DNA of 64,000 bases. It comes from Trypanosoma brucei. Taxonomy: Eukaryota. The notes under the pieces were generated by a model. The model was given only the letters and a program-made list of their open reading frames with translations, had not been told where the DNA came from and ran no database searches. Location: assembly GCA_000002445.1 (NCBI GenBank), contig AE017150.2, positions 864,001 to 928,000 of the forward strand. The letters run 5' to 3'. Numbering within the stretch: position 1 is the stretch's first letter; the number at the start of each line of letters is the position of its first letter. Made by a program: the position numbers and the translations under genes. Shown here piece by piece: positions 1,536-37,454 of this stretch.

Positions 1536-2516
1536 CTACTCAATTATACCACACAGAAACGACAAGAATAACAGGATACAACAAACAGGAAACGGCACCT
1601 TGTACAGAAGGAACACACTCAATAGTGAGTACATCTCCCTCCCAGAATCAGGTGCAATAACATTCGTCATTCTGCTTGCCTCGCCGACAGCTGCTTCATA
1701 CCCATTACTGCACCGACCGCTAGGAACAGTACCTGAAGCACAGTTAACAGGAGAATAAACCAATGGAGAAGCCGAAGCAGCAGTCTGATCCCCAGCACCC
1801 TTTGGGGAGTGACGGCTCCTCAACGCTGTCGAAGGTGGAGACACCTCTCCTCCAGCATTCCTTACAGCTGAACCTAACTGTGGCTGTGCTGCCGGAGCTT
1901 TCTCCACAGCCGCAGTCTCACAACCTTCCACAAGTCCTTCCACCTTTCCATGACTTCGCTTCATCACAAGGCTATCCGGAACACCCAACTCCCCATAAAT
2001 ACAGCGAAGTGCACACCGAACAGCATTCCGCTCCCTCGCCTGCACACGTCCACGTTGCTTCCAAAATGCAGCAGCGACGTCCGGACCGCTAGGGCCCTTT
2101 CTACTACAGTCACCTCCAAAGAAACCACTCACAGACTCATACGGTGCCATAACTTCCCTCGGCACCACACATATATCCACGAACACCTCATCCCTTGTGC
2201 CAGCGTCTGGCAACTCCACAGCTCCTTCCTCCACGCCACCACGCCTCGCTGCGAGACGACGGAGCCTACGGATGTCAAGCATAAACTTCACCCTCACACA
2301 TTCACCAGCAAATATCAGTCCAACAGATGGTTGAACACCATAGCGATTGCGTACAGCACTGAGAACTTTGAACGCCACAACATTCTCACAAGGGTCCTCA
2401 GTACGTACAAGTAGACTACTTAACTCGATAATATTCTCAATACTGGCATCCGTCAGAGGAGAAGGAAAGTACAGGCACTCCTGTGAAAAACAAACAATGC
2501 CCCCACCACCCTTCAT
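1536..2516 (-). CDS. hypothetical protein (no recognisable domain)
   Basis: 326-aa ORF on the strand used by the PTU. The C-terminal ~50 codons run into low-complexity (CA/GA) sequence, so the true boundaries are uncertain. Confidence 0.3.
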   Translation of the reverse strand: MKGGGGIVCFSQECLYFPSPLTDASIENIIELSSLLVRTEDPCENVVAFKVLSAVRNRYGVQPSVGLIFAGECVRVKFMLDIRRLRRLAARRGGVEEGAVELPDAGTRDEVFVDICVVPREVMAPYESVSGFFGGDCSRKGPSGPDVAAAFWKQRGRVQARERNAVRCALRCIYGELGVPDSLVMKRSHGKVEGLVEGCETAAVEKAPAAQPQLGSAVRNAGGEVSPPSTALRSRHSPKGAGDQTAASASPLVYSPVNCASGTVPSGRCSNGYEAAVGEASRMTNVIAPDSGREMYSLLSVFLLYKVPFPVCCILLFLSFLCGIIE

Positions 2517-4048: not shown

Positions 4049-5104
4049 TTAGCCATAATATTGCAGGGCTAAGGGAGGAGCATCAAAACCCTCTGGGGGA
4101 GCAAAAGGTGTTGGCTCCAGGACAAACAACGGTTCTCCAACAACTTCACGCAGCGTCATGGGAATGATCTCCTTTTTAACATTATAATCACAGAACCAAC
4201 GTAAAAGGAAAAGCAGCAACACAATGAGGGAAACAACAGAAATTAGAGCTATGAGAATAATGTGCCAATTACTTCTCTCTTCCAATGACGCAGTTGTCAC
4301 AGTAACTTCTTCATCCTTTGTCACAGTTGGTTCCGGTACTTCGCCTGAGGCAGGTGCAGCTGTAGTTGTTGTCGTCGTGCTGATAGAATCGTGGACCTCG
4401 CAAACAACAACGTAGTCTTGAGACTTTGTTTCAAAGTTCTGACTTGTCCATCGGATAGTCCCAGAAGCCTCCCTGCCATCGTACCAGGTAGTCACATCTT
4501 CGTGTTCATGGTACCATGAAAGGGTATACAACTGACCACTCTTGGGATATTCACTACCCCAAAAGGATGGGTAACCATTCATTGGGGCCGCAAAAGCGTA
4601 TTTGACATATGAACCACGCCAGAACGCCACCCCGTGACCATCAGGCAAAGCCTTTGCAAACAATCCCTTATTCCAACGATACACACAATGACGTGAAGAT
4701 GCCGCGTCTCCAGGCTTACAACGCTTATCAGCTTCAAATACCCTTGTACTGCTGTACACAGCATCTCCACCAAGGTAGCTGACGGCCTCAAACTCAAAAA
4801 TTACACTCTTCATAGCATCCTGCAAACTTTGGTGTGCCGCCTCCGTTTGATCGGCAGGAAGCACAGCACCGTTGTCGACACAATATGCTTCAGCATTATC
4901 GTAACCAACAATGTACCGTTCGTGACGACTAAATGCAAAATTGTCCATAGAGAAATACTCCTTCACATTAACAATCACGCGTCCATCATCATCATCAGCA
5001 GCAGTCACATGCAGCGGACACACGGCAGTTAGCAATAATAAAATACCGCACAGGAGAGCAGCACGCGTAAAACCAAAATTCACCATACGGGTGTCCATGC
5101 TCAT
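4049..5104 (-). CDS. type I transmembrane surface glycoprotein-like protein (signal peptide, Cys-containing ectodomain, Thr-rich stalk, single TM, about 50-aa cytoplasmic tail)
   Basis: 351-aa ORF. The N-terminal hydrophobic signal is MSMDTRMVNFGFTRAALLCGILLLLTAVCPLHVTAA. The stalk is STTTTTTAAPASGEVPEPTVTKDEEVTVTT, the TM segment is WHIILIALISVVSLIVLLLFLL, and a cytoplasmic tail follows. The architecture resembles invariant-surface-glycoprotein-type proteins of trypanosomes; family membership is unverified. Confidence 0.6.
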   Translation of the reverse strand: MSMDTRMVNFGFTRAALLCGILLLLTAVCPLHVTAADDDDGRVIVNVKEYFSMDNFAFSRHERYIVGYDNAEAYCVDNGAVLPADQTEAAHQSLQDAMKSVIFEFEAVSYLGGDAVYSSTRVFEADKRCKPGDAASSRHCVYRWNKGLFAKALPDGHGVAFWRGSYVKYAFAAPMNGYPSFWGSEYPKSGQLYTLSWYHEHEDVTTWYDGREASGTIRWTSQNFETKSQDYVVVCEVHDSISTTTTTTAAPASGEVPEPTVTKDEEVTVTTASLEERSNWHIILIALISVVSLIVLLLFLLRWFCDYNVKKEIIPMTLREVVGEPLFVLEPTPFAPPEGFDAPPLALQYYG

Positions 5105-7087: not shown

Positions 7088-7825
7088 TCATTTCATCAAC
7101 GTCATGAAGTCTGGAAGTTGAGTCGCCACATTTCCTGGAATGATTTGAGCTGAGTGGGGTGAACTCTCAATCGCGCTCATTAGGGCATCGAACACCAAAG
7201 CGCCTCCAGTCTCACTAAAGTGAAGACCATCAGAAAGGTAATCGCACCACGGCCCTTTGGCTACATTTGGCGACTCAGCGTCTTTTCCAAGAAAACGTTC
7301 GTACAGGTCAACGACATGAACGTCATTGTGCGCTTTTTTCTCCACGCATCCGACCTGCAAAACCGCATCGCGATAACTGAGGACCCTTTCAAGTGATCGG
7401 CCACAGGTGCTGGGGTCTGCCCCAAACTCCCGCTGCAGGCGTTTATGCCACTTTTCAACATTTATAGGTGGTGGCGTCATGAGAAAAATACCGCCGACAG
7501 GAGAAGCGTGTTTACGTACCAAGTCGATGATCGCCCTCAAGTTACTCTTGAATTCATGCAACGGTACGGCCTGACCACCGGTGGCACAGTCATTGGAACC
7601 CAACAACAATGTTATAAACAGCGGACGTGGGGCGTACGCGGGAAGTAAATGGTGCCGTGACTCATCATTCTTCAGTATGCTCAGAATCCAACGAGTGTTG
7701 TAACCACACAACCCACGGTTTATGACGTCTGCGCGGCGGACGTATACGTTGCTCAGTCGTGACGCCCACCCGCACTCAAAGCCCCACTCCGTGAGAGAAT
7801 CACCCAACAAAAGAATGTGAGACAT
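7088..7825 (-). CDS. GDSL/SGNH-family esterase (IAH1-like)
   Basis: The N-terminus is MSHILLLGDSLTEWGF, with the catalytic GDSL motif at residues 8-11. Block II is LLGSND... and a DxxH-like C-terminal region (SDGLHFSETG) is present. Length is 245 aa. Confidence 0.8.
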   Translation of the reverse strand: MSHILLLGDSLTEWGFECGWASRLSNVYVRRADVINRGLCGYNTRWILSILKNDESRHHLLPAYAPRPLFITLLLGSNDCATGGQAVPLHEFKSNLRAIIDLVRKHASPVGGIFLMTPPPINVEKWHKRLQREFGADPSTCGRSLERVLSYRDAVLQVGCVEKKAHNDVHVVDLYERFLGKDAESPNVAKGPWCDYLSDGLHFSETGGALVFDALMSAIESSPHSAQIIPGNVATQLPDFMTLMK

Positions 7826-8125
7826 AGAAAATACGTCGGAGGGGAAAAGAGGTACAAAACTGTTGAATATAGGTGATGTCTGTTGCTAATGTTTCTTCTT
7901 TGATACTATTATTAATACTGGTGGATCGCGTAACGCAATCGCGCAGCAAAAATGAAAGGAGGGAAGAAGGGACATACACGACAAATACTCGGCACTATCT
8001 AACATACAATACAACCGCCACAACAATGTTGTTATTAACCCCAAATGCTCTCCCCCACTTGCCGCACACAAACACCCCATAATAACCGTAAGCGCCAACT
8101 CTGGTGAAGAATAAACCGAAAGCGT

Positions 8126-8126
<1 letters not shown>

Positions 8127-8170
<44 letters not shown>
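8127..8170. repeat. (CA)22 microsatellite in the 3' flank/UTR of the zinc-finger gene
   Basis: Uninterrupted cacaca tract read directly from the sequence. Confidence 0.95.
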
Positions 8171-8175
<5 letters not shown>

Positions 8176-8187
8176 AGACACCTCCAT

Positions 8188-11100
8188 TCATTCATGCAGC
8201 GGCAACAAACCTCCTGCTGCGGTTGTGCATTTAGAACCACCACTGTTAGCGGCGGAATTGGCTGTGGTGTGCCTTTTACACTTACAGATATCATTCATAT
8301 TCGTCCCAACCACCTCTGTCACCACTCGGGACTCACGGGGCACCGCTTTCCGATGTAGACAAGCAGGGCAAACAACATCGTTCACAATCCACTGACGCGG
8401 CAATTTCATGTATCGAAGGTACGCCCAACGCGTCTCACGATAAATGTGAGCCTTTTGCATAGGTCGCACGAGCTCGCACAACTGTGAGAGTACCTCAAAA
8501 CCTAGTTCGTCATAGTCGGTCGTGAGATTCATAAGATCGACCAAATCCAGCGCAATAGCTACCCAGGGCCTCTTGTGTGCCCACGAAACCACCGGCACGC
8601 CGTCAACAACGTTATTGGGCTTTCCTTCCAACGCCAACAAGCAAGCCAACTGAATAATCTCCGCCACGCTCCTTACGGCACTGTGCACTGTGCCATCCTC
8701 CAACACTGGCACCCGTGGGCGTATGCCGCACCTCAAACCTCGAGAAAGGTCACATCCACGCCAGGGCAACGCTGCCTCCTCTGCGCGCTGTAGTGCAGCG
8801 ACTGCGGAACGAAGTAACTTCAAAGCGGTCGAAGGGGAGAGCTCACCATGCGCCGCGCGACGGACCGCGTTGAGAACTATCTTAAGCCTCAAACGGTGAA
8901 CTATCTCTTGCTCCGCCGGCCACACACTGGAAGGCAAAGACCGTCGTTGGTTGCAGTGGTTACATGCAGGACAGACACCGGCTAGATTTTCCAAATGCAA
9001 AAACGTCCCACATGAAGCGCAAGGGGATGGCCCTAAGGGCAGCGGAAAAAGTAGTGCAGTGGGTAAGCAAACCTCAGCACCACCCGGTGAGACACCGTCG
9101 CCGTCTCCCGCAGGGTGGTTCCCGCTGCCGCTAATGTCTTCAACTTCCTTGACTGTGTGATGTAGGTCACTCGCAACCGCAGCCCCGCCAACCTTCTGTT
9201 CAGCAGCGCTGGGATGCATGTCAGTGCACGAACGTATTTCTCGGTACCGAAGAGGATTTGTATAATAAGTAGCGACAGCAACGGCATCGTGAGCAGCACC
9301 ACAGTGCAGGCACGCTAACAGTCCCTCACCACTACCTTTTCGCAAATTGACGCCTAAACAGTTGTTTTTCAGGCAAACCCAAAGCGTGCAAGCGGTATGT
9401 GGGCGAGGAGCATGGCACGTTGGACAAGCCACAGCCTCCTTACCATCGTAGAGGCTACCGCAATGTGGACACGAAGTGTATGCCGGCTCCACCCCACCCT
9501 CAGTAAAATCAATGTCACGTCGGCCTGGATCCCTCTCTGTAGGCTCGAGCACATCCTCGCAGCTACGACAGACAACACTCCACGCAGGGCATGTTGCTCC
9601 ACAGCGAGTGCATTGTCGGGTGGCCCACGGTGTGTCAAGGCGAGTAAATGACGCAGATTTGGTGGCGCCACAGCCGTGACAATGAGTAAGTAGCCATGGG
9701 CAAGCCGTATGGCACTCCACACAACGCCACAATGTCTTTGGAGGACCCGAAGCGGCAGCTGTACACAATGTCCCGCAAAGGGAACACCAAGGACGGAGCA
9801 TCCCAAGAGGATTGTGCCGTCCGCAAACCCTGCAGTCGAATGCAGTTCGCGCCATGGCCTCTTCCATCGTTGGCTGAGGGGATGCACACCGTGCGCAGTA
9901 GAATAAATGTTGCGGTTCGTTTGTGTGGCTGCATCGACCACAGCGCCAGCGTCGTAGTGGAAAGATGGTGCAACCATCAAGAGGAAGCGCGTCACATCCA
10001 ACACCCGCTCCCCGTTCCAATGTTTCCGCTCCACATACAAGACAAATAGGGAAGTTACTGGGAGAAAATCCCCCACAGCCGCGGCATTGAATGACTGCTA
10101 GCTCCAGCGTACCACAGTATTGACACGTGCTGGCACCCCTCCTGTTCCATCGAGTGCATGACCGGCACCTCCACGGCTGTCGCTGCCGCCCAACGTACCG
10201 TCGAAATTCTAAAGCACTCTGCACAGCTTTCAGCACCTTGTCCGTGTGCTCACCCATTTCTGTGGTCGTGACACGGTGGTTCAACGACTCCAATGACGCG
10301 AGTGGCATTTCGTGCAGTGGGCTTAGGTGAGTAACGGGGCATCGAGGCGCGCCCACCACGTCGAGGAGTACAACGCTTATTCCTTCAACGAAACCCAAAC
10401 TAAGGAAGTGCTGAAGGGCCATACGACGCGCACCCAACCCAGGGTGCGCGCGATCCAACAGAGACAAGAGGCAGAAGTGGTCGGATGTAGCTTCCCCGGA
10501 ACGGCATTCACCAAGAAGACGCACGTACAATTCTACAACCTTCGAAAGGAGTCCATCCCTTCGGTAAGTTTCCACTGATGTGTGGCGGTGCAGCAATGCG
10601 TGAAGCAGCTGCAGGCATTCATAAGGCGTAGCATATCCCAAATGACTGTCGTTCGCACCAGCACACCCATGGGCAACTGCAGAAAAGGCGACTGCCGGAG
10701 GTATAGGAAATTTCCATGCTCGCGTCAGGTCGTACAAGCGGAACATACCCACCAAAGCCTCCTCAAATCCTGATTCACTGCAGTACCGCCTAGATGCCCC
10801 CTCCACAGCTTCCAACATCAAATCACGGATGTAGTGAGGGAGGCCGGCAGCAAAGTGCCGCCTCGCACCCAGTAAAAAATGTGTGAAAACCTCCACAGCC
10901 TCAGAATACCTCCCCAACAACACGAGTGCTTTGCCGCCCTCCCACGAACCACCCAATGATGGACAGTCGTGTAGATGCCTCTCAATGATTTCATAGGCGC
11001 CACAGCGTAGAAATAACTTGAAGGAAATGCGAATAGCCTCCCTTAGGCGCCGATCAACCACTGCCCGCGCCCCGCGGTGGAGACCGATGGCATCACGGTC

Positions 11101-12462
11101 ACAGCCGACGGCGGGCGCGCTCCGCTCCAGGGCGTTAAGGTGGGCAACACAACGCGACAGGAGAGAGGATGTTTTCTCTTTCGCATACGCGTTAACGTCT
11201 GGGGCGGTCTCACCAACGTGTCCAACTGTCATGAGAGTGTAGGCGTCAAGCAACAACACTTCTCTGTACACCAAGGGCCCAAATCGCCCTGCTGCGGCAG
11301 AGACAAGCGGAGATTCCAGGCCAGCGACGTCATCCCCCCGCACGGAAGCGTGAGAAGCAGATACCAGGGCACTGTGAAGAAGTAAAATTGGTAGTACGCG
11401 GCCGTGGCGACGGAATGAACAAATGGTACGGCGAAGCGACTGCAACGCGCCGACCTTCGTGCGAGTTCCTACGTCCGTACGGGCAAGCACAAAGTGCGCG
11501 TAACGCACCATCTCAAAAAGAAGCAAGCGCCAAAAAGGGGAAAAGCGCTCTGCCTCCGAAGGAATACAGGAAATTGGTAAAATATTTTGTAACGATAAAA
11601 GCAGTCTCTCTTCTCTCTCGTTCTCACCAAACAGGCACCCATCCAATGCATCCAGCTCTGAGCCGTCATTCGGGAATTGGAAAAGATAACCAGTTGGGGC
11701 CCGGCACACTTCCACCGTTGCGGACTCTAGCAACTCGGTATTTTCAACGTCAGGGCTCACCGCGCACCGCCACAACAACCACAGCACCCCTCCGTGTGCA
11801 CCACGTTTCACCAACAGCTGCATGCTCTTCCGCAAAGGACCTCCAGTGGTGTCCTCAGCTGCAGCAGCACAGGCAAGTGGCAAAAGAAGGTGCACACTCA
11901 AAATATTATCTTGCCGCAACCAGTATGTAAAAATTGTTGTTGCACAATCCCACGTTTCTTGCACTGTCCAGAAGAACTCGTACTTCTTTTCACTCCGTTC
12001 CGCATGCCAACCGCGGCCTAACCGGCATCCACCAACCATGTCCCTCACGAACAGAGCATACTCCCTTTGCACGCCACAGAGAAGCCGCCAGGATCCCCCC
12101 TCCTCTGAAGTAGCGGTGGCTTTATGACGAGTATTTTCCTCACCACCCGGAACCAAAGGAAATGGGGGAGGAGTGTCTAAAAGACCCGCCACAGCGCTTG
12201 CGCCCAGCCCTGTCGCGACTATAATGTCACACAATATTCCCTCGCGTATAAGCGAACGCAGCGGCAGGGAGTTGTACAAAAAGAAAGAAACCGACAGTGC
12301 TGCGTCCGACCGACCCTTCGTCACGTGAAACAACTCGCTGAACAAGTGCGACTTCAGGGAGGGTTTGCTACCCTCAGGGTTAAAGGCGATGCCATACTCT
12401 ACCGGCACAACACAACGCGCGTGCGCAACAGCACTCTGCCGGATAAAAGGTGGCTTCAGCAT
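8188..12462 (-). CDS. large protein (1424 aa) with at least 7 RanBP2-type zinc fingers in its C-terminal half
   Basis: Repeated W-x-C-x2-C-x3-N-x6-C-x2-C motifs, for example WRCRSCTRWNRRGASTCQYCG, WRCGRCSHTNEPQHLFYCARCA, FDCRVCGRHNPLGMLRPWCSLCG, WRCVECHTACPWLLTHCHGCG, WATRQCTRCGATCPAWSVVCRSC and YTSCPHCGSLYDGKEAVACPTCH. The N-terminal ~700 aa show no recognisable domain. Confidence 0.65.
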   Translation of the reverse strand: MLKPPFIRQSAVAHARCVVPVEYGIAFNPEGSKPSLKSHLFSELFHVTKGRSDAALSVSFFLYNSLPLRSLIREGILCDIIVATGLGASAVAGLLDTPPPFPLVPGGEENTRHKATATSEEGGSWRLLCGVQREYALFVRDMVGGCRLGRGWHAERSEKKYEFFWTVQETWDCATTIFTYWLRQDNILSVHLLLPLACAAAAEDTTGGPLRKSMQLLVKRGAHGGVLWLLWRCAVSPDVENTELLESATVEVCRAPTGYLFQFPNDGSELDALDGCLFGENEREERLLLSLQNILPISCIPSEAERFSPFWRLLLFEMVRYAHFVLARTDVGTRTKVGALQSLRRTICSFRRHGRVLPILLLHSALVSASHASVRGDDVAGLESPLVSAAAGRFGPLVYREVLLLDAYTLMTVGHVGETAPDVNAYAKEKTSSLLSRCVAHLNALERSAPAVGCDRDAIGLHRGARAVVDRRLREAIRISFKLFLRCGAYEIIERHLHDCPSLGGSWEGGKALVLLGRYSEAVEVFTHFLLGARRHFAAGLPHYIRDLMLEAVEGASRRYCSESGFEEALVGMFRLYDLTRAWKFPIPPAVAFSAVAHGCAGANDSHLGYATPYECLQLLHALLHRHTSVETYRRDGLLSKVVELYVRLLGECRSGEATSDHFCLLSLLDRAHPGLGARRMALQHFLSLGFVEGISVVLLDVVGAPRCPVTHLSPLHEMPLASLESLNHRVTTTEMGEHTDKVLKAVQSALEFRRYVGRQRQPWRCRSCTRWNRRGASTCQYCGTLELAVIQCRGCGGFSPSNFPICLVCGAETLERGAGVGCDALPLDGCTIFPLRRWRCGRCSHTNEPQHLFYCARCASPQPTMEEAMARTAFDCRVCGRHNPLGMLRPWCSLCGTLCTAAASGPPKTLWRCVECHTACPWLLTHCHGCGATKSASFTRLDTPWATRQCTRCGATCPAWSVVCRSCEDVLEPTERDPGRRDIDFTEGGVEPAYTSCPHCGSLYDGKEAVACPTCHAPRPHTACTLWVCLKNNCLGVNLRKGSGEGLLACLHCGAAHDAVAVATYYTNPLRYREIRSCTDMHPSAAEQKVGGAAVASDLHHTVKEVEDISGSGNHPAGDGDGVSPGGAEVCLPTALLFPLPLGPSPCASCGTFLHLENLAGVCPACNHCNQRRSLPSSVWPAEQEIVHRLRLKIVLNAVRRAAHGELSPSTALKLLRSAVAALQRAEEAALPWRGCDLSRGLRCGIRPRVPVLEDGTVHSAVRSVAEIIQLACLLALEGKPNNVVDGVPVVSWAHKRPWVAIALDLVDLMNLTTDYDELGFEVLSQLCELVRPMQKAHIYRETRWAYLRYMKLPRQWIVNDVVCPACLHRKAVPRESRVVTEVVGTNMNDICKCKRHTTANSAANSGGSKCTTAAGGLLPLHE

Positions 12463-13243: not shown

Positions 13244-15046
13244 TCACACTCCTTGATCATTTGGAGACGCTACTGCAGAACCTGTTGGACTTGGGGGACG
13301 GAAAAGCAAACCCTGCAAAATATCACCCAGCAATTTTATGCCGTCCACTGTCCTAGCGGCTTCCTCGGCACGGGTAGCGATGACATCCTGTCCAGCCTCC
13401 CTTGCTACTGAGGCCACATCTAAGAGAAGTAAGAGCACAGCCGCATCCATAATCGACCGGTCGGCTAGCCGACAGCAATGCAACGGCAATCGTACGTCAC
13501 TACCCGTCCCACTTCCAGGAGAGCACACCACCTCAGGTGACAGAACAGGCCGTCGCAGTACGTAGCTGCGCCCACCACACACTAAGAGCGGATGTGGGAG
13601 AGTACAACCGTAAAGAGTGGACAACGCAACCACGAGATGCGCCGCGCAACCAAGAGAGAGACCCCATTCCTGCAGCAACTCGGTTGACACCCCCTCTGAC
13701 TGGTTGAGTGTTGGCAAGCGGAACCCGCATATACTATACCCAGTGCCGGCCGCCGTGGTGTGGAGAGAGTTACCAGCGCAGCGGATGGGGAACAGCTCCC
13801 GCAACTCCACCACCCTGTAGTACCTCGCCCGCCCAAGCTGTGTGCGAAGGGAGGCATGTTTTCGCTCCTGCTCCTGCACCGTGCTGATGGACAGTTCCTG
13901 TTCCATCCTTTCCTGATCCAACTTTTGCTCTACCGTTTCCAGTTGCGTGTATAGTGACAGTGCGGCCCTCCGTTCATCCGCATATTCTCTACGCAGCTTC
14001 TCCAAGGACAGAAGTTCATATCGCTGCCTCTCGCGGGCACTCTCCAAGCGCGCCTTCAGCACGGCATGCTGCGCCCCCACCACCGCACCCTCTCCTCCCA
14101 AATAGCCGTACTTATCAGCCTTGTCCATGAGTGCCTTCTGCAATTTAGCCCTTGCTGAGCCGAATTCGTTCAAATAGACCCACGCCAAAGTGCCTGTCGA
14201 ACAGGCCTTCAGGTCTCCGACCGACATATTCTTCAAACTGTCAATACGTCGCAGCAGCGCGCCGTTGCGGGTCTCGTTATGAGATGAGGTCACCGAGCCA
14301 CCAGCTCCCCATGCAGTTGGCGCCGCCATTTTGAACAGTGATATTTGTGCTTCCGCAGAGTCCTCCCGCTCCGCACACATGCCTTGGTGTAGCGGAAAGA
14401 AAACACCATCGCTACACCGCAGTAACAAGACAAAAGAATGCAACCCATTGTCCACATGACAGGGCAGTTGCGGTAACTCATCCGCGGCTGTCATGCTCGG
14501 TGCTACAAACTGTACATGGGACGTCTCCACCAACATCTCGTACAGAAGCAAATCCGTATCAGGTGCCGGTCGTGGATCTTTCAGATGTGTTGTGCAGGAG
14601 TACAGAGAAAAGATAAACTTCGTCAGACTTGCGAATTGCATCCGCACCGATTCCGGAATATGCTGCCACACCGGATGCTGAGTATCACACTGAACCTCAC
14701 TCATGTAAATGCAGCGACCCCCATCGGTGGAAGCCCTCTCAGCGACACCCGCATCAACAGCGGCCTCTGAACCTCTTTGGTTTGTGGTCTTCGGAGCAGA
14801 ACTAATAACAAAATAAGATGATATACATCGCCGATCATTCTCCTGGGCTTCTTTGCTTTCGCCATGTGCCCCCGGTTCATCTCCGGCGTTTTTTAGCGGT
14901 AGGTTGCGGGCGTAGATATGCAATATGTGCCGAAAACAGCGAAGCTCAGGTGGAACCACCGAACACGTCATGATGTTCAGTGGTACAGAGCAGGCAACAC
15001 AAACTACGAAAACAAACAAGAGATAACTGTCCAGTTTGTCCCCCAC
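13244..15046 (-). CDS. Beclin-1/Atg6/UVRAG-family-like protein (coiled coil followed by a BARA-like domain); putative PI3K complex subunit
   Basis: There is a central coiled coil (LESARERQRYELLSLEKLRREYADERRAALSLYTQLETVEQKLDQERMEQE). It is followed by ...YSICGFRLPTLNQSEGVSTELLQEWGLSLGCAAHLVVALSTLYGCTLPHPLLVCGGRSYV. This resembles the Beclin BARA signature [33 protein letters not shown]...YRLVPYGNHSY. Confidence 0.4.
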   Translation of the reverse strand: MGDKLDSYLLFVFVVCVACSVPLNIMTCSVVPPELRCFRHILHIYARNLPLKNAGDEPGAHGESKEAQENDRRCISSYFVISSAPKTTNQRGSEAAVDAGVAERASTDGGRCIYMSEVQCDTQHPVWQHIPESVRMQFASLTKFIFSLYSCTTHLKDPRPAPDTDLLLYEMLVETSHVQFVAPSMTAADELPQLPCHVDNGLHSFVLLLRCSDGVFFPLHQGMCAEREDSAEAQISLFKMAAPTAWGAGGSVTSSHNETRNGALLRRIDSLKNMSVGDLKACSTGTLAWVYLNEFGSARAKLQKALMDKADKYGYLGGEGAVVGAQHAVLKARLESARERQRYELLSLEKLRREYADERRAALSLYTQLETVEQKLDQERMEQELSISTVQEQERKHASLRTQLGRARYYRVVELRELFPIRCAGNSLHTTAAGTGYSICGFRLPTLNQSEGVSTELLQEWGLSLGCAAHLVVALSTLYGCTLPHPLLVCGGRSYVLRRPVLSPEVVCSPGSGTGSDVRLPLHCCRLADRSIMDAAVLLLLLDVASVAREAGQDVIATRAEEAARTVDGIKLLGDILQGLLFRPPSPTGSAVASPNDQGV

Positions 15047-23784: not shown

Positions 23785-25971
23785 TCATTTCTCTTGTGCA
23801 AAGGACTGTTTGCCCGCTAGCCCATGGAAAAGATCAAAATCTTCCCTTGATTCCTCCATCTTCTCTTGCTCCGCCTTAGTGTTTCCGAAAGGCTTCCTAT
23901 CGCCAAACAGAAGAACCTTATCCCCCCGTTGTATCCCTGTGTCGGTTCCCGGGATGGTCCAGTAGGACTCCATATCCTCTGCAGCGCAGGGGGCGCGTAG
24001 AGCCCTCGGAACCTGGAAAGCGTCGACAAGGTTTACACACTGCGGCGCCATGACAGTAACAATGTTATCAAGATGGGAGCTGAGGATGCAGGATTTGCTG
24101 GGACTCATCATTTGTTGGGTGAGAAAGTAATCTAACCGGTCCTGCTGCCTGGAAAGGGCAAATATCCACCCCATGTCACGTAGTATTTTTCTCGCTCGAG
24201 GATCGGTACAGGCCTGGGTTTCGTCCATCATCACTTCCAGTGCGAACATTTCCATGTACGCTTCGCCGCAGTGCACCACCTGTTCGTGACGAAACATTAC
24301 CCAGTCGTACCATTGGTGCTCGGAGCCGCCTTTACGCCTTTCTATTTCACGGGATTGCCGTAGGCGCTTCTTCTCGCGGTAATGCTTGTGACTAAAAAAA
24401 ATCCGATGCCTTCCCAGATCCGCAATTCGTGGTGAATAAAAGGGGTTTTTAACGAACCTATCCAGCGCCGCAAACGACTGGAAACAACTGGAGAGCCACC
24501 AACCCCAATGGGTAGTGCCCACATTTTTGACGACCGATTTGAACGCCACCTCTCGAATAAGTGAAGAATGGTCCAACCCATCACGCCGCATCTGAACTGT
24601 TAAAAGGACGTCGCACGTTCCGGTGCTCCTGAGGGAGGAATGCACATCCATAAAATCATCCGCAAAACTCTTTAGAGTCGACAAATTATCCGTTAAGAAG
24701 TACAGGGTTCCGGCAAGTTTCATCTCATCTTCGTAGTCCGCCGGTTGTGCCTCTGGCTTCGTGAAGGCGGGAAGCACGCGCCGCCAGAGGGTCATGTAAA
24801 CGTACGATGTGCAGAGAAGCTTTACAAGAGGCGATTGGACATGTTGCACTCCAAAGACTGGGTAATTGCGTCGTCCATCAGGCCCCACCATCCACTTTTG
24901 TGCGACGTAGCGGACAATATTCGTCAAACTCCTCTTCAAGGTTCCAACGTAAAGTGCTCCGGATGCCAACCGCATTTGGCGGGTTAGTGCCTGTACGGAT
25001 GTGAGAGTGGCAGCACCACCCGCAAATACAAGTTTTCCATCAACAATCTCGGACGGAAGAAGTAGGGAAGTAACAGGGATGGTAACATTCTCGAAGTGAA
25101 GGACGCCCACGCCGGCAGCAGTCATGGCTTCATTCTCTCCATTAATCGGCCTCGCACTAACGCCCTTTTTCAGCACTCCACCCTCCCTTAGTTGCACTGC
25201 GAAAGCATGAATCCCCATGTTGTCATCCTTGTTAAGCGTAAGGGTGGCAGTAACAATAGCCCAGTCCGCACACACGGCACCCACAACAGCAAACTTTCCC
25301 GAACCGCGCAGTACAAAAACATTTTCGCCGCGGTTGTAGCGCGCTTCTGTGTTGAGAGGGACGCCTTCAGCAATGAGCTCTCTGTGGGCAATTGCCCCAA
25401 CAATGTGGCAACTGTCAACGTGGTCCAGCAGAAGTGCCTTCATTTCTTTCGACCCGTACAACGCTATCATTGCCGCGAAGGTGAAGTGGTCTGCAGCCAA
25501 CAGCGCAAGTGGGGTACAACACATTGCGATGACCTCATAGAAGGTACAAAACAACTGCGGGGTAGAGTTCACCTGCGCAAAAGAAAGAAGTCGCTTCTTG
25601 GCAATTGCACGAAGGAGCTGGACGGTTCGCTGAACAGAACTACCCTGGGACTGAGGCAGGTCATCACGCACGACAAAATTTGATGGGTTCCGGGGGAGCA
25701 CCTCCATTAAAGCCCGCCGCACCTCCTCCTTGTAGTCTATATCGATGCCCTCACAAATAAAGCGGAATGTTGGCTCCTCAAATGCATGTTCCATGCTGTA
25801 CATCTGCTGTGAAGGATTCAACTCGAAGTGCAGCTGAGGGGAACGATGGAACGTCCGCCGCTGAGCAGTTAGCGGCGCCTTCCAGCAACAGCTTTTAAGG
25901 CCCGTGTTCGCGTAAAGAAACCGATACACAATATTTGGGGGCAATTTTGAAAATAGACCCTTGCACATCAT
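23785..25971 (-). CDS. acyl-CoA oxidase/dehydrogenase family-like protein
   Basis: MGIHAFAVQLREGG...GVLHFENVTIPVTSLLL resembles the ACOX middle-domain blocks GxHAFIVxIRD and FxNVRIP. An ACOX-like C-terminal helical domain follows. The true start is probably at an internal Met (MYSMEHAFEE). Confidence 0.5.
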   Translation of the reverse strand: MMCKGLFSKLPPNIVYRFLYANTGLKSCCWKAPLTAQRRTFHRSPQLHFELNPSQQMYSMEHAFEEPTFRFICEGIDIDYKEEVRRALMEVLPRNPSNFVVRDDLPQSQGSSVQRTVQLLRAIAKKRLLSFAQVNSTPQLFCTFYEVIAMCCTPLALLAADHFTFAAMIALYGSKEMKALLLDHVDSCHIVGAIAHRELIAEGVPLNTEARYNRGENVFVLRGSGKFAVVGAVCADWAIVTATLTLNKDDNMGIHAFAVQLREGGVLKKGVSARPINGENEAMTAAGVGVLHFENVTIPVTSLLLPSEIVDGKLVFAGGAATLTSVQALTRQMRLASGALYVGTLKRSLTNIVRYVAQKWMVGPDGRRNYPVFGVQHVQSPLVKLLCTSYVYMTLWRRVLPAFTKPEAQPADYEDEMKLAGTLYFLTDNLSTLKSFADDFMDVHSSLRSTGTCDVLLTVQMRRDGLDHSSLIREVAFKSVVKNVGTTHWGWWLSSCFQSFAALDRFVKNPFYSPRIADLGRHRIFFSHKHYREKKRLRQSREIERRKGGSEHQWYDWVMFRHEQVVHCGEAYMEMFALEVMMDETQACTDPRARKILRDMGWIFALSRQQDRLDYFLTQQMMSPSKSCILSSHLDNIVTVMAPQCVNLVDAFQVPRALRAPCAAEDMESYWTIPGTDTGIQRGDKVLLFGDRKPFGNTKAEQEKMEESREDFDLFHGLAGKQSFAQEK

Positions 25972-26405: not shown

Positions 26406-28553
26406 TTACTCTATGTCCATCTCGTACCACTCGGAGTTGCCCGCCCAGTCTTCCGATGTCATGCGAGGATTGGGAACCGACAGGTCTGCTCGAGAAGCAT
26501 TATGTGGGTTGCGATTTACCGTTGGAAGCTGCTTCGCTGGTTGTATCTGTTTTGTCGTGGTTCGACCGCCAATAAGCAGGACACAACTAGCATCGACAGC
26601 TACCAACCCTGAGTTTTCCTTCACAGTTTTTACGCGCACAAAAAGGGTAGTGTTAAATACCTGTTCCACACGACCAGTCTGGCCGTCGAGATGATACGGA
26701 GAGCTGTCGTCATTCTGTATAATCACCTCAGATCCACGGGTAATCATGTTAGCCAGCTGGTCCGTGGTTTGGCGCCGCCCAGTGAGGACTGGCTTGATCT
26801 GTGTGGTTGACAAGTAGCGCGTCTCCATCCGATCTGTCAAGACGCATACGTCGTTGCGGTTTAGGCGCACAACACAAGCGACGGATGAGGAATCCGGCAG
26901 CATCACTAGATCAAATAGTTTCCATGACCCCGAAGTATGGCCGAAGGAGCCAACGAGATTGCTCCGATGACAGTCATCTGCACGAACCACCAACTCGCGT
27001 GTAGCAGTAGCCCTATCGGAGAACACATGTACAACATCACCCAGCGCCTTCACCACCGTGCCACTTTCACCAGCATGCACACCCCCATCGATAACGACAT
27101 GGGTCCCCTCGGTGAAGTGCTTCACACACAGTGGAAGCTCGACCCGAAGCTTTATTGTCTCGCCCCTCATGGGAACCCGACATGACAAGGCAACCGTATT
27201 TGTGTCCAGAAAAATATTTTCTATTGTCCCCACAGTTTCGCGCAGCTGTCCAGATACCACCCGCACCATGTCACCAATGCGCAGCCCCGCTGAGCCACGA
27301 CCGTTGGAGGCGAAATGGGAAGCAGCCTCACGCACCCTGTTAAGGTCGCTGCTAAAGAAGGCAGCTAACTCCTCTACTGTGGGCTTCTCCATCTTAACCC
27401 CACTTATAACCTGGCTGAGGGACACGCTGAGGTGAAGGTATCCTTCGCCATCAAAAATGAGGTCACCCCACGCGTACATTTCACCCCGGTTATGAGCTCC
27501 TACGGCAAGATTTGGGACAAATAAGCGTTGGGGCATTCGCACCTCAGGTTTGTTGCAAGTTTTTCCAACGAAGTCCTCCCGAGGAACCACTTTAACCGTC
27601 ACGCGTCGAGAGGCTGAGTCAACGGCAATTACCTGCGCGATATCCAGGCGGTATTGACGCCGCCGCAGCCGAACAAAGGAGCCTACACGAATCTTATCCT
27701 CTGAGGGCCGATGTTCCATCATCTGCATCAGCTCTGAAGGATTTACTAGAGAAATATTGCTTCGAAACAGGCCAACTAACCCGTTGATTGCATTCTCTAC
27801 AAACGCTTTGCGGTGTGATTCAATATATATATATTCTTTCACGTGATCGAAGCAAAACACCGAAATAATACCCAGGTCAACTTTTCGCTTCTCATAATTG
27901 CGACCTATACGAAAAGCGTAGCATTTGTTTACTAATCGGGCGACAAGCACACGAGCCATGCGAGGGCGACACTTAACAGCGAAAACTTTGGGATCCGTAT
28001 CCTGCGGCAGCAAATGCGAAGCATAACGTAGTGACGACAGCTTCCCTTTAGGAATACCAGAAGACAAAAGCGCTTCTGTTCGGTTCGCTTTTTTCCTACC
28101 AGAGCGGTACCGTTCTTCAATAGCACGCGCTACCTCTTCGGCTGTCATGTCCTCTTCTCCCTCAAGAAAGATGTGTCGTTTCCCTCCTTCGCGCATCGCC
28201 ATCGGACCACCATAGACGTCACTTTCGCTGTCCTCATCACTTCCAACAACAAAACCATCGTCAGATTCCGTTTCCCCGCTCTCTGCAGCATCAATAACAA
28301 ACTTGGATCGCACCCTTGGGTTCACGCCATCGCTCTTTCTCCCTCCCGAATGCTTAATACGTGATTTGGCCCCATGACGCGAACGCTTCCTCCTTTTATG
28401 TTTCCTGCTCTCTTCTCTTTCCTGCTGTTCTTTCTTGTAAACTTCGTCATAACTACCTTCTACTTCTGAGGGGTCGGAGGGAACCACAAGGTCCATTGGT
28501 TCATGGTCTGCAAGGAGATCAGCGAGTTCCTTTACACCTAGTTCGTCGGACAT
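26406..28553 (-). CDS. SPT5: transcription elongation factor SPT5
   Basis: There is an acidic N-terminus and an NGN domain (FAVKCRPRMARVLVARLVNKCYAFRIGRNYEKRKVDLGIISVFCFDHVKEYIYIESHRKAFVENAINGLVG). Multiple KOW-like motifs are present (GDMVRVVSGQLRETVGTI, GTHVVIDGGVHAGESGTVV, GSEVIIQNDDSSPYHLDGQTGRV). Confidence 0.8.
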   Translation of the reverse strand: MSDELGVKELADLLADHEPMDLVVPSDPSEVEGSYDEVYKKEQQEREESRKHKRRKRSRHGAKSRIKHSGGRKSDGVNPRVRSKFVIDAAESGETESDDGFVVGSDEDSESDVYGGPMAMREGGKRHIFLEGEEDMTAEEVARAIEERYRSGRKKANRTEALLSSGIPKGKLSSLRYASHLLPQDTDPKVFAVKCRPRMARVLVARLVNKCYAFRIGRNYEKRKVDLGIISVFCFDHVKEYIYIESHRKAFVENAINGLVGLFRSNISLVNPSELMQMMEHRPSEDKIRVGSFVRLRRRQYRLDIAQVIAVDSASRRVTVKVVPREDFVGKTCNKPEVRMPQRLFVPNLAVGAHNRGEMYAWGDLIFDGEGYLHLSVSLSQVISGVKMEKPTVEELAAFFSSDLNRVREAASHFASNGRGSAGLRIGDMVRVVSGQLRETVGTIENIFLDTNTVALSCRVPMRGETIKLRVELPLCVKHFTEGTHVVIDGGVHAGESGTVVKALGDVVHVFSDRATATRELVVRADDCHRSNLVGSFGHTSGSWKLFDLVMLPDSSSVACVVRLNRNDVCVLTDRMETRYLSTTQIKPVLTGRRQTTDQLANMITRGSEVIIQNDDSSPYHLDGQTGRVEQVFNTTLFVRVKTVKENSGLVAVDASCVLLIGGRTTTKQIQPAKQLPTVNRNPHNASRADLSVPNPRMTSEDWAGNSEWYEMDIE

Positions 28554-37057: not shown

Positions 37058-37454
37058 TGAGGTTGAGAAAGGAATCGTCCATCCTTACCACTTTCCTTGT
37101 TATTCGTTCTTTCCTTTCTTATATATGCATAGAAAAACTATTACTGAGGAAAGTTTTTTAAAAAGGTAAGTAATCGCTGTAAGTTTTGAGAGATGGTAAC
37201 GACAACCCCTCCAACTATATTGGATGCCGAATGGAAAATAAGTTTGAAAGAAATAAGGACTTTTGTGAAGCAGGGCGGTCGGACCACATTTTCATTCGAC
37301 TATTGTCCCCCTTTTGGAAATACAGCGGTACACGTAGACGGTTTGGTGAGGCTTGAAAATGGAGAGCTTCGAGTGATTTTTGACTAGGCAGCTAAATTTC
37401 GTCGATTTACGGAGCTCGTTGGTTTCCTTCAATATGCCCTAAAACATTGAATTC

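What the first reader, a model, noticed from the sequence alone, without database searches (positions are those of the whole stretch)
8188..12462. Giant protein carrying a cluster of at least seven RanBP2-type zinc fingers
The C-terminal ~550 residues contain successive W/F-x-C-x2-C-x3-N-x6-C-x2-C fingers. RanBP2 ZnFs bind ubiquitin, Ran-GDP or single-stranded RNA. An array of seven attached to a ~700-aa uncharacterised helical N-terminus is unusual. It suggests a multivalent ubiquitin- or RNA-binding scaffold, which would fit a kinetoplastid where gene regulation is post-transcriptional. The (CA)22 tract immediately 3' of the stop would give a (UG)n element in the mRNA 3' UTR.
Basis: partly seen in the sequence, partly recalled or inferred. 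Interest (0 to 1): 0.5.

Follow-up and report, generated by a model that had tools for sequence, protein, structure and literature searches.

The report
Kinetoplastid solenoid protein with nine zinc ribbons
The ORF is the uncharacterised Trypanosoma brucei gene Tb927.2.4950: a helical-repeat protein carrying nine different four-cysteine zinc fingers, some of them loosely RanBP2-like, that is found only in kinetoplastids and is probably imported into the mitochondrion, which argues against a ubiquitin-binding role.

Summary
The ORF is real: window 8188-12462, minus strand, 1424 aa. It is 100% identical to T. brucei TREU927 Tb927.2.4950 (UniProt Q586T3), annotated 'hypothetical protein, conserved' and auto-named 'RanBP2-type domain-containing protein' in UniRef.

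It has an all-helical N-terminal solenoid of about 750 aa.

Only finger 1 fits the quoted RanBP2 pattern exactly. Fingers 3, 4 and 8 fit with longer loops, and fingers 5 and 6 fit in other species. Fingers 2, 7 and 9 are generic zinc ribbons. Pfam zf-RanBP matches none of them.

The residues that define ubiquitin-, RNA- or Ran-binding RanBP2 fingers are absent from all nine.

All nine fingers keep their order from Bodo saltans to Trypanosoma. An exhaustive profile search with the N-terminal domain found no relatives outside that group of orthologues.

A published import proteomics study lists the protein as ATOM40-dependent. All orthologues have basic, acid-free N-termini.

Best reading: a mitochondrial scaffold whose fingers bind nucleic acid, probably RNA. 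This is inferred, not shown. The (UG)n tract after the stop codon is real and is a polymorphic microsatellite. Interest is modest.

The parts
8188..12462 (-). Complete CDS of Tb927.2.4950 (UniProt Q586T3), 1424 aa, stop codon at 8188-8190
   Evidence: ORF list. 100% identity to the TREU927 protein P0011. Gene ID and 155.91 kDa mass come from Peikert 2017 Suppl. Data 6.
12400..12462 (-). N-terminal 21 residues MLKPPFIRQSAVAHARCVVPV: basic and acid-free, a candidate mitochondrial presequence
   Evidence: The first acidic residue is at position 22. 16 of the 18 orthologues examined have no D/E in at least the first 16 residues (first D/E at position 17-60), and all but one have a net positive first 30 residues, although the N-termini are not alignable between lineages. 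TargetP and MitoFates did not call a presequence.
10186..12357 (-). All-alpha solenoid domain (residues ~36-759; best conserved from residue ~300), with one TPR-like hairpin near residues 500-545
10114..10173 (-). Finger F1 (764-783) WRCRSCTRWNRRGASTCQYC: the only exact fit to the RanBP2 PROSITE-type pattern; conserved W-N-[KR]-[KR]
   Evidence: Regex. 12.8 bits on a rough RanBP2 profile, reached by 3 of 300 Cys-fixed shuffles. W764, W772 and N773 are invariant in Trypanosoma and Leishmania.
10033..10086 (-). Finger F2 (793-810) CRGCGGFSPSNFPICLVC: RanBP2 spacing (x2, x10, x2) but no Trp and Ser in place of Asn; with F1 it resembles a double zinc ribbon
   Evidence: Pfam DZR covers 766-811 at 17.6 bits, below the 27.3 cut-off. 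No better than shuffles on the RanBP2 profile.
9886..9948 (-). Finger F3 (839-859) WRCGRCSHTNEPQHLFYCARC: RanBP2-like with a loop one residue longer
   Evidence: Relaxed regex in all orthologues. 11.5 bits, reached by 3 of 300 shuffles. L836, R837, W839, N848, H852 and F854 are invariant from Bodo to T. brucei.
9775..9840 (-). Finger F4 (875-896) FDCRVCGRHNPLGMLRPWCSLC: aromatic-x-C and Asn present, loop x12
   Evidence: G887, R890, P891 and W892 are invariant across the family.
9670..9729 (-). Finger F5 (912-931) WRCVECHTACPWLLTHCHGC: RanBP2 spacing; the signature Asn is replaced by Cys921 in T. brucei but kept in T. vivax, Phytomonas, Bodo and others
   Evidence: The strict pattern is met at this position in 7 orthologues. 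The closest solved sequences are the eL40 zinc ribbon and the MDM2 RanBP2 finger, E about 0.2, not significant.
9559..9627 (-). Finger F6 (946-968) WATRQCTRCGATCPAWSVVCRSC: RanBP2 spacing; Asn replaced by Cys958 in T. brucei; the Trp sits 5 residues before the first Cys
   Evidence: Bodo saltans has a perfect pattern here, WSCEHCDGSNVMWKTFCSHC.
9415..9471 (-). Finger F7 (998-1016) CPHCGSLYDGKEAVACPTC: generic Cys4 zinc ribbon
   Evidence: Many sub-threshold zinc-ribbon Pfam hits and none to zf-RanBP.
9301..9381 (-). Finger F8 (1028-1054) WVCLKNNCLGVNL...CLHC: W-x-C-x4-C-x3-N with a long x15 loop
   Evidence: W1028, C1030 and C1035 are invariant.
9043..9282 (-). Variable, acidic, low-confidence linker (1061-1140) between F8 and F9
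   Evidence: Poorly aligned and length-variable among orthologues. pLDDT 20-40. Net charge -5.
8953..9021 (-). Finger F9 (1148-1170) CASCGTFLHLENLAGVCPACNHC: generic Cys4/5 knuckle pair
8383..8937 (-). Conserved helical C-terminal domain (1176-1360) with motifs LPWRGCDL, RVPVLE..TVHSA, DELGF and RETRWAYLR.MKL
   Evidence: Conserved from Bodo and Leishmania to Trypanosoma. AF2 pLDDT 66-83 in its helices. No Pfam, PDB-sequence or Foldseek match.
8269..8370 (-). C-terminal CxxC...CxC(xxH) knuckle (1365-1398), a possible tenth zinc site
   Evidence: C1365, C1368 and C1395 are invariant in Trypanosoma and Leishmania. Bodo has CRRCLYLRCRC.
8127..8181 (.). (CA)22 perfect / 27.5 imperfect microsatellite, 6 nt 3' of the stop codon; reads (UG)n in the transcript
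   Evidence: TRF. It is the only dinucleotide run of 10 or more units in the 64-kb window. T. b. gambiense has it too, but the neighbouring ~70 nt differ.

Best explanation
Window 8188-12462 (-) is T. brucei gene Tb927.2.4950. It encodes a 156-kDa modular protein found only in Kinetoplastea.

**Anatomy (shown)**
- A short basic N-terminal tip.
- An alpha-solenoid of about 720 residues.
- Nine individually conserved, non-equivalent Cys4 zinc-ribbon modules on variable linkers. F1, F3, F4 and F8 (plus F5 and F6 in other species) carry the RanBP2-like [WFY]-x-C-x2-4-C-x3-N signature. F2, F7 and F9 are generic ribbons.
- A 250-residue conserved helical domain ending in one more Cys knuckle.

**Location (supported by one published data set plus sequence features, not proven)**
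- The protein is imported into the mitochondrion through ATOM40.

**Mechanism (inferred)**
- The solenoid and the C-terminal domain dock protein partners.
- The string of basic, aromatic-rich zinc ribbons grips single-stranded nucleic acid, most likely mitochondrial RNA.
- Each finger contributes a different contact rather than acting as one of several identical binding units.
- The protein would therefore be an adaptor in mitochondrial RNA metabolism, not a ubiquitin or Ran receptor.
For: **Identity and spread**
- 100% identity to the TREU927 protein.
- Orthologues with the same N-domain, nine fingers in the same order and the same C-domain occur in Trypanosoma, Leishmania, Leptomonas, Novymonas, Lotmaria, Phytomonas and the free-living Bodo saltans.
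- An exhaustive HMMER search of 1.84 billion representatives with the N-domain profile found 27 hits. Fifteen have E<=1e-30, all family members or fragments of them. The weaker hits are two distant orthologues, one of them Bodo saltans, and matches over the single TPR-like hairpin; the two such hits scanned with Pfam are TPR-repeat kinases.

**Fingers**
- The signature is far above chance (0 of 5000 shuffles).
- Orthologous fingers are much more alike than paralogous ones (0.31-0.75 against 0.17).
- Linkers expand greatly in Leishmania while the fingers stay put. This is a beads-on-a-string layout.
- Finger region F1-F8 has net charge +9. The residues invariant from Bodo to T. brucei are mostly W, F, H and R.

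**Mitochondrial import**
- Peikert et al. 2017 (PMC5436138, Suppl. Data 6) report the protein reduced to 0.34-fold in gradient-purified mitochondria after ATOM40 RNAi, in 4 of 4 replicates, p=0.049.
- In that study 84.5% of mitochondrial reference proteins but only 5.5% of non-mitochondrial ones fell in the importome.
- With a prior of about 14% mitochondrial genes, my own calculation gives roughly 0.7.
- N-termini are acid-free and basic in 16 of the 18 orthologues examined (first D/E at position 17-60), across lineages with unalignable N-termini.
- The mRNA is listed among those elevated in stumpy forms (PMC2753553).

**Precedent**
- MRB6070 is a T. brucei mitochondrial protein predicted to have 5-6 RanBP2-type fingers. 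It associates with the MRB1 editing-accessory complex in an RNA-dependent way (PMC3384329).
Against: - No RNA-binding evidence exists for this protein. The ZRANB2-type RNA-recognition residues are absent from every finger.
- The import evidence is a single high-throughput entry with borderline p (0.049) and 1.7% sequence coverage. The same list contains obvious non-mitochondrial proteins such as nucleoside transporters.
- TargetP and MitoFates predicted no presequence.
- The gene was not found in the text-held supplement of the 2017 mitoproteome compilation or in the held TrypTag supplements.
- It matches no chain of any solved trypanosomatid mitochondrial ribosome, assembly intermediate or editing complex in the PDB sequence set.
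- The finger region could not be modelled (pLDDT <50), so even the zinc-ribbon fold is inferred from motifs.
Confidence: 0.4

Rival explanations
1. The zinc ribbons are protein-protein interaction or purely structural modules. The protein is then a scaffold of a protein complex, mitochondrial or cytosolic, with no nucleic-acid contact.
For: RanBP2-type and other zinc ribbons often bind proteins (stated in PMC3384329). Each finger has its own conserved identity, which fits distinct fixed partners. The residues conserved from Bodo onwards are mostly the structural Trp, Asn and Pro of the fold. The solenoid and C-domain are typical protein-docking surfaces.
Against: The finger region is net basic and rich in exposed-type aromatics. 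Flexible, expandable linkers suit a polymer ligand. There is a mitochondrial precedent for RNA binding by such arrays.
Confidence: 0.25
2. One reading: a cytosolic or nuclear multivalent ubiquitin-binding (NZF-type) scaffold.
For: Npl4/TAB2/HOIP-type NZFs share the W-x-C-x2-C-x3-N-x6-C-x2-C scaffold that F1 fits exactly. F3-F6 have the N-(x)-P turn also seen in NZFs.
Against: The T-F dipeptide after the second Cys and the hydrophobic residue between the last two Cys define ubiquitin-binding NZFs (established knowledge of the Npl4/TAB2 structures). They are absent in all nine fingers, and these positions are not conserved among orthologues. The protein is likely mitochondrial. The fingers are not equivalent copies.
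Confidence: 0.06
3. A nuclear-transport or nuclear-pore factor: a karyopherin-like solenoid plus Ran-binding fingers, as in Nup153/RanBP2.
Confidence: 0.04
4. A kinetoplast DNA maintenance factor whose fingers bind kDNA rather than RNA.
For: If the protein is mitochondrial, DNA is an alternative polymer ligand. The gene appears in the 'Day 5 +tet kDNA0 vs Day 0' list of a 2026 RIT-seq screen for kDNA loss (logFC 3.8, FDR 0.0035; PMC13191291).
Against: That list has 1852 genes. The authors judge that a considerable portion are false positives, with no enrichment for mitochondrial proteins. The gene occurs only once in the file, so it is absent from the 436-gene and 132-gene lists. It is not mentioned in the main text of the kinetoplast-associated protein preprint checked.
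Confidence: 0.1

Closest known systems
MRB6070 (Tb927.2.6070), T. brucei mitochondrial RNA-binding complex 1 accessory protein
   Same: Same organism and, probably, the same compartment. Both have an array of several RanBP2-type-like Cys4 fingers. For MRB6070 the association with MRB1 is RNA-dependent (PMC3384329), which is the functional model adopted here.
   Different: MRB6070 is a 31-kDa protein made of little more than 5-6 fingers. Tb927.2.4950 is five times larger, with a solenoid and a C-terminal domain. Its nine fingers are heterogeneous.
Canonical RanBP2-type zinc fingers (Pfam PF00641; PROSITE PS01358): ZRANB2, FUS/EWS/TAF15, RBM5/10, Npl4/TAB2/HOIL-1L NZFs, Nup153, RanBP2, MDM2
   Same: Four Cys with x2(4)/x10/x2 spacing, Trp two residues before the first Cys, and Asn four residues after the second. 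All of these are present in F1, and with longer loops in F3, F4 and F8. F5 and F6 have them in other kinetoplastids. The MDM2 finger is among the nearest solved sequences to F5 (E 0.22).
   Different: No finger reaches the Pfam profile. On a rough profile built from remembered family sequences, the fingers score 0.6-12.8 bits, against 19-52 bits for true members left out in turn. Loops are lengthened. The ligand-specifying residues of all three characterised subclasses are missing.
Double zinc ribbon arrays (Pfam DZR PF12773, DZR_2 PF18912, Zn_ribbon families), including DZANK1 and bacterial multi-ribbon proteins
   Same: Tandem C-x2-C-x10-12-C-x2-C-G ribbons. F1+F2 align end to end with the DZR model. 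PF12773 is the only precomputed Pfam domain on five Trypanosoma orthologues. The only non-family hits of the finger-region profile are such proteins (E 3e-6 to 0.5). DZANK1 is a weak PDB-sequence hit.
   Different: The T. brucei protein stays below the DZR cut-off (17.6 against 27.3 bits). DZR proteins have near-identical repeats and no solenoid or C-domain.
Ribosomal protein eL40 zinc ribbon
   Same: C-x2-C-x3-N-P-W-x4-C-x2-C-G matches the family consensus of F5 almost residue for residue. eL40 is an RNA-contacting ribbon (own knowledge).
   Different: The match is not significant (E 0.2). eL40 is a single ribbon in a 50-residue protein.
Plant organelle zinc-finger (OZ) RNA-editing factors with RanBP2-type fingers (own knowledge, not tested here)
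   Same: Organelle-targeted proteins that combine several RanBP2-type fingers with other domains and act in organellar RNA processing.
   Different: There is no sequence relationship: the exhaustive search with the N-domain found nothing outside the orthologue family. This is an analogy only.

Membership tests
RanBP2-type zinc finger (PROSITE PS01358 pattern W-x-C-x(2,4)-C-x3-N-x6-C-x2-C) | Exact match to the pattern | tested here: met
   Met by F1 only in T. brucei (764-783). At family level it is also met by F5 in 7 orthologues and by F6 in Bodo saltans. Eight of the nine T. brucei fingers do not meet it.
RanBP2-type zinc finger (Pfam PF00641 zf-RanBP) | Score at or above the curated gathering threshold of the family profile | tested here: not met
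   No PF00641 hit at E<=10 on the whole protein or on nine isolated fingers. None at E<=0.01 on the Leishmania, Bodo and two other orthologues. None in the precomputed Pfam lists of orthologues.
RanBP2-type zinc finger | Conserved Trp (or other aromatic) at -2 of Cys1 and Asn at +4 of Cys2 | tested here: met
   Both are present in F1, F3, F4 and F8 of T. brucei, and in F5 and F6 of other species. They are absent in F2, F7 and F9. Enrichment against Cys-fixed shuffles: 4 observed, 0.05 expected, 0 of 5000 shuffles reach it.
RanBP2-type zinc finger | Zinc-ribbon fold of two beta-hairpins around one Zn | tested here: inconclusive
   The AF2 model of residues 741-1424 has pLDDT mostly below 50 over the fingers. 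Short paired strands are predicted but are not reliable. Zinc binding itself is not testable with these tools.
Ubiquitin-binding NZF subclass (Npl4, TAB2/3, HOIL-1L, TRABID) | T-F (or T-Y) at +1/+2 of Cys2 and a hydrophobic residue (M/L) between Cys3 and Cys4 | tested here: not met
   The +1/+2 residues are TR, GG, SH, GR, HT, GA, GS, LG and GT. These positions vary among orthologues.
ssRNA-binding ZRANB2 subclass (ZRANB2, FUS/EWS/TAF15, RBM5/10) | D-W before Cys1 and N-[FW]-x-R-R after the signature Asn | tested here: not met
   The residue after the Asn position is R, P, E, P, P, P, D, L and H in F1-F9. No N-[FW] occurs and no D-W.
Ran-binding subclass (Nup153, RanBP2/Nup358) | L-V-x-N after Cys2; FG-repeat context | tested here: not met
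   No finger has L-V at +1/+2. The protein has two isolated FG dipeptides (residues 278 and 394) and no repeats.
Double zinc ribbon (Pfam DZR PF12773) | Score at or above the gathering threshold (27.3 bits) | tested here: inconclusive
   The T. brucei protein scores 17.6 bits over 766-811, full model length. Five Trypanosoma orthologues carry a precomputed PF12773 hit.
Karyopherin-beta / importin family | Sequence-level membership or a specific structural superposition | tested here: not met
T. brucei mitochondrial importome | ATOM40-dependent abundance in purified mitochondria | tested here: met
   This is literature evidence, not my own experiment. Log2 ratio -1.56, 4 of 4 replicates, p=0.049, coverage 1.7% (PMC5436138 Suppl. 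Data 6). The criterion was log2 <= -0.62 and p<0.05.
T. brucei mitochondrial importome | Microscopic co-localisation with a mitochondrial marker | not testable with these tools
   The gene is not in the text-held TrypTag supplements, and no tagging study mentions it.

The most novel reading that the evidence does not exclude
Tb927.2.4950 is a kinetoplastid-only mitochondrial RNA-handling factor. It would read or hold single-stranded RNA with nine non-equivalent, non-canonical zinc ribbons mounted between two helical docking domains. That would make it a so far unnamed player in the unusually complex mitochondrial RNA processing, editing or translation machinery of these parasites, with a recognition code different from the ZRANB2-type GGU readers.
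Probability: 0.25. Interest if true: 0.55.

Novelty: new variant of a known kind. Interest (0 to 1): 0.33.

Why it matters
Kinetoplastid mitochondria run one of the most elaborate RNA-processing systems known, and many of its factors are lineage-specific proteins without recognisable domains. A 156-kDa protein conserved from free-living Bodo to the pathogens, absent from the host, and built from an ancient fixed array of nine distinct zinc ribbons is a reasonable candidate for a missing adaptor.

The fingers also show how far the RanBP2/zinc-ribbon scaffold can drift, with longer loops and loss of the signature Asn, and still be kept for hundreds of millions of years.

For annotation, the practical lessons are these:
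- The 'RanBP2-type' label on this family rests on one or two fingers.
- That label says nothing about the ligand.
- The ubiquitin reading is unlikely.

Nothing here changes a major question, and the gene and its automatic label are already in public databases.

Tried and rejected
1. Pfam scans of the whole protein, of each finger and of orthologues found no zf-RanBP. They gave only sub-threshold ribbons.
2. phmmer and profile searches against all PDB chain sequences gave nothing significant. In particular, no trypanosomatid mitoribosome, assembly-factor or editosome chain matched.
3. The AF2 model of the finger and C-terminal half was too poor over the fingers (pLDDT 46.8). Foldseek against the PDB gave no hit with E<0.07.
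The C-domain was therefore never searched exhaustively.
6. Word-indexed homologue searches returned only 9 family members. For the finger profile they returned only three zinc-ribbon repeat proteins of bacterial type (my reading of their sequences; the sources give no organism).
7. I first guessed gene IDs from neighbour counting (Tb927.2.4960 and others), which found nothing. The correct ID, Tb927.2.4950, came from a UniProt-to-gene table in a supplement.
8. The kDNA-loss screen hit was rejected as uninformative, because it sits in the 1852-gene list that the authors themselves distrust.
9. The TriTrypDB GO terms 'translation initiation factor activity / RNA binding' attached to the gene are probably an automatic mapping from a zinc-ribbon signature. 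That is my inference, and I did not use them as evidence.
10. The rough RanBP2 profile was built from sequences recalled from memory. It is indicative only.
11. The overlapping ORFs 9369-10076 (-) and 11388-11930 (+) lie inside the CDS in other frames. I took them to be spurious.

Full report
**1. The observation**

The window holds one uninterrupted ORF at 8188..12462 on the minus strand, 1424 aa. Its product is 100% identical to the T. brucei brucei TREU927 chromosome 2 protein XP_951671 / UniProt Q586T3, and 99% identical to the T. b. gambiense copy. NCBI calls it 'hypothetical protein, conserved'. UniRef calls it 'RanBP2-type domain-containing protein'.

A supplement table that pairs UniProt and TriTrypDB identifiers gives the gene as Tb927.2.4950, 155.91 kDa. 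Window landmarks agree with this: Spt5 (Tb927.2.5030) at 26406-28553, a DnaJ gene (Tb927.2.5160 is annotated 'chaperone protein DNAj, putative') at 46836-48056, and the neighbouring GDSL esterase (Tb927.2.4930) at 7088-7825.

Residues 758-1175 contain 45 of the 75 cysteines, arranged as nine CxxC...CxxC units. A further CxxC...CxC knuckle sits at 1365-1395.

The tract 6 nt after the stop codon is (CA)22 perfect, or 27.5 units with imperfections, on the plus strand. It therefore reads (UG)n in the mRNA. It is the only dinucleotide run of 10 or more units in the 64 kb.

**2. How RanBP2-like are the fingers?**

| Finger | Residues | Aromatic at -2 of Cys1 | Residue at +4 of Cys2 | Loop between Cys2 and Cys3 | Reading |
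|---|---|---|---|---|---|
| F1 | 764-783 | W | N | x10 | exact fit to the quoted pattern |
| F2 | 793-810 | none (I) | S | x10 | canonical spacing, no signature |
| F3 | 839-859 | W | N | x11 | fits with a longer loop |
| F4 | 875-896 | F | N | x12 | fits with a longer loop |
| F5 | 912-931 | W | C | x10 | Asn replaced in T. brucei |
| F6 | 946-968 | none (R; Trp at -5) | C | x10 | Asn replaced in T. brucei; no aromatic at -2 |
| F7 | 998-1016 | none (T) | Y | x11 | generic ribbon |
| F8 | 1028-1054 | W | N | x15, with a C-x4-C first knuckle | fits with a longer loop |
| F9 | 1148-1170 | none (S) | L | x12 | generic ribbon |

- Across 20 family members, the strict PROSITE-type pattern hits F1 almost everywhere, F5 in seven non-brucei species and F6 in Bodo saltans. 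Six finger positions are therefore RanBP2-like at family level, and four in T. brucei itself.
- This is not chance. With cysteines fixed and all other residues of the region shuffled, the relaxed motif appears 0.02 times per shuffle against 4 observed. None of 5000 shuffles reached 4.
- Pfam zf-RanBP gives no hit at E<=10 on the whole protein or on any isolated finger. It gives none on four distant orthologues and none in the precomputed domain lists.
- The only Pfam signal is the generic double zinc ribbon model: 17.6 bits against a cut-off of 27.3 in T. brucei. It is listed as a precomputed hit for five orthologues.
- A rough RanBP2 profile that I built from remembered sequences, so approximate, scores true family members at 19-52 bits when each is left out in turn. 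It scores F1, F3, F5 and F7 at 12.8, 11.5, 8.0 and 7.7 bits, and the rest near zero. Only F1, F3 and F5 clearly beat Cys-fixed shuffles.
- A profile of the finger region against all PDB chain sequences finds only non-significant matches (E about 0.2). These are the eL40 zinc ribbon, the MDM2 RanBP2 finger and DZANK1.
- Against 5.8 billion proteins, the finger profile's only non-family hits are zinc-ribbon repeat proteins of bacterial type. One of them also carries PF00641.

My reading is that these are zinc ribbons lying between the RanBP2 and 'double zinc ribbon' families. The 'RanBP2-type' label rests on one or two fingers.

**3. Specificity positions**

None of the three characterised signatures is there.
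- The ubiquitin-binding T-F...hydrophobic motif is missing. The +1/+2 residues after Cys2 are TR, GG, SH, GR, HT, GA, GS, LG and GT, and they vary between species.
- The ZRANB2-type N-[FW]-x-R-R motif is missing.
- The Ran-binding L-V-x-N motif is missing.

The definitions of these signatures come from established structural knowledge of Npl4/TAB2, ZRANB2 and Nup153, not from a test run here.

**4. The rest of the protein**

- The N-terminal 760 residues fold as an all-alpha solenoid in AlphaFold2 (pLDDT 71.8, pTM 0.69).
- One hairpin near residues 500-545 is TPR-like.
Its motifs (LPWRGCDL, RVPVLE..TVHSA, DELGF, RETRWAYLR.MKL) are conserved through to Leishmania and Bodo.
- That C-terminal domain matches nothing in Pfam, PDB sequences or Foldseek.

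**5. Distribution and evolution**

- An exhaustive HMMER search of 1.84 billion cluster representatives with the N-domain profile returned 27 proteins. Fifteen have E<=1e-30.
- The named ones are Trypanosoma, Leishmania, Leptomonas, Novymonas, Lotmaria, Phytomonas and the free-living bodonid Bodo saltans.
- The weaker hits are two distant orthologues, one of them Bodo saltans, and matches over the single TPR-like hairpin; the two such hits scanned with Pfam are TPR-repeat kinases.
- The family therefore appears confined to Kinetoplastea.
- All nine fingers are present in the same order in Bodo.
- Non-Cys identity between orthologous fingers is 0.31-0.75, while paralogous fingers average 0.17.
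- In Leishmania the linkers between fingers grow by tens of residues while the fingers stay.

The array is thus ancient, fixed and heterogeneous, laid out as beads on a string. It is unlike the homogeneous multivalent arrays of Nup153 or RanBP2.

**6. Where it acts**

- Peikert et al. 2017 list Tb927.2.4950 among 331 'new mitochondrial candidate proteins'. Its abundance in gradient-purified mitochondria fell to 0.34-fold after ATOM40 RNAi (4 of 4 replicates, p=0.049, 1.7% coverage). TargetP and MitoFates were negative.
- In that study 84.5% of mitochondrial but only 5.5% of non-mitochondrial reference proteins met the criterion, and only 4 of 11 validated proteins had a predicted presequence.
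- With about 14% of genes mitochondrial, my estimate for the probability of mitochondrial location is about 0.7. I lower it somewhat for the borderline statistics and for obvious contaminants in the same list.
- Independently, 16 of the 18 orthologues examined have a basic N-terminus with no acidic residue in at least the first 16 residues (first D/E at position 17-60), although these N-termini cannot be aligned between lineages.
- The mRNA is listed among those elevated in stumpy forms. This fits a mitochondrial role, though weakly.
- Against this, the protein is not in the held mitoproteome compilation or the held TrypTag supplements. It also matches no solved mitochondrial complex.

**7. 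Mechanism**

Shown: the domain anatomy, its conservation, and the absence of known ligand signatures.

Supported but not proven: mitochondrial import.

Inferred: no ubiquitin or Ran system is known in the mitochondrion. The finger region is net basic (+9), and its invariant residues are W, F, H and R. In the same organelle, MRB6070 is predicted to have 5-6 RanBP2-type fingers and joins the MRB1 complex through RNA.

I therefore favour a mitochondrial adaptor that holds single-stranded RNA with the ribbons and docks partners with the two helical domains (confidence 0.4).

Rivals, with my confidence in each:
- A pure protein-protein scaffold, 0.25.
- kDNA binding, 0.1. The only hint is membership of a distrusted 1852-gene screen list.
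- Ubiquitin binding, 0.06.
- Nuclear transport, 0.04.

**8. The (UG)n tract**

It is real, and it is also present in T. b. gambiense. There the sequence next to it differs by about 70 nt. That is the usual behaviour of a microsatellite, and nothing ties it to regulation.

**9. Verdict**

- The gene and its automatic label are already public, and no functional study exists in the searchable literature.
- The architecture is a lineage-specific variant of known parts.
- Interest is modest (0.33). It would rise to about 0.55 if the mitochondrial RNA-adaptor reading were confirmed.

Noticed in passing
window 35000-41700: Divergent strand-switch region. All ORFs of 200 aa or more are on the minus strand up to 35028 and on the plus strand from 41662. 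GC skew changes sign at about 36 kb, as expected for a polycistron start region in a trypanosome.
   Followed up: no
window 9670-9729 and 9559-9627 (residues C921, C958; also C900 at 9763-9765): In T. brucei the signature Asn of fingers F5 and F6 is replaced by Cys, and a Ser after F4 is also Cys. Other kinetoplastids keep N/T/S at these positions. The extra cysteines next to zinc ligands might alter or add metal ligation.
   Followed up: partly
window 12400-12462 and the N-termini of P0002-P0039: In 16 of the 18 orthologues examined the N-terminus is basic with no Asp/Glu in at least the first 16 residues (first D/E at position 17-60), even though it is unalignable between Trypanosoma, Leishmaniinae, Phytomonas and Bodo. 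This looks like a presequence that TargetP and MitoFates missed.
   Followed up: partly
window 8075-8181 versus L001 5775-5830: The (TG)n tract after the stop codon is followed in TREU927 by about 70 nt that are missing in T. b. gambiense DAL972, where the repeat runs straight into 'gcggcaagtggggg'. This is either a microsatellite-associated indel or an assembly collapse.
   Followed up: partly
window 13244-15046 (-): The upstream neighbour encodes a 600-aa coiled-coil protein with a Pfam ATG14/VPS38 domain (E 7e-10), a candidate PI3-kinase complex subunit.
   Followed up: no
window 8188-12462 (literature): Tb927.2.4950 appears in the 1852-gene 'Day 5 +tet kDNA0 vs Day 0' list of a 2026 genome-wide RNAi screen for kDNA loss (logFC 3.8, FDR 0.0035), but not in the stricter lists. 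[quoted passage not shown]
   Followed up: yes
window 8188-12462 (literature): TriTrypDB v8.1 GO terms for this gene were 'translation initiation factor activity' and 'RNA binding'. This is probably an automatic transfer from a zinc-ribbon signature such as the eIF2-beta/eIF5 type (my inference), and is an example of misleading annotation.
   Followed up: no
window 4049-5104 (-) and 1536-2516 (-): A gene with an IGP-family C-type lectin domain (DUF5075, E 1e-85) and a gene with a weak MSP/VAP domain lie downstream of the esterase.
   Followed up: no
window 23785-25971 (-): A 728-aa protein matches only the C-terminal part of acyl-CoA oxidase (PF01756, E 4e-11). This is unexpected for an organism usually described as lacking peroxisomal beta-oxidation by ACOX (the biological remark is from my own knowledge).
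   Followed up: no
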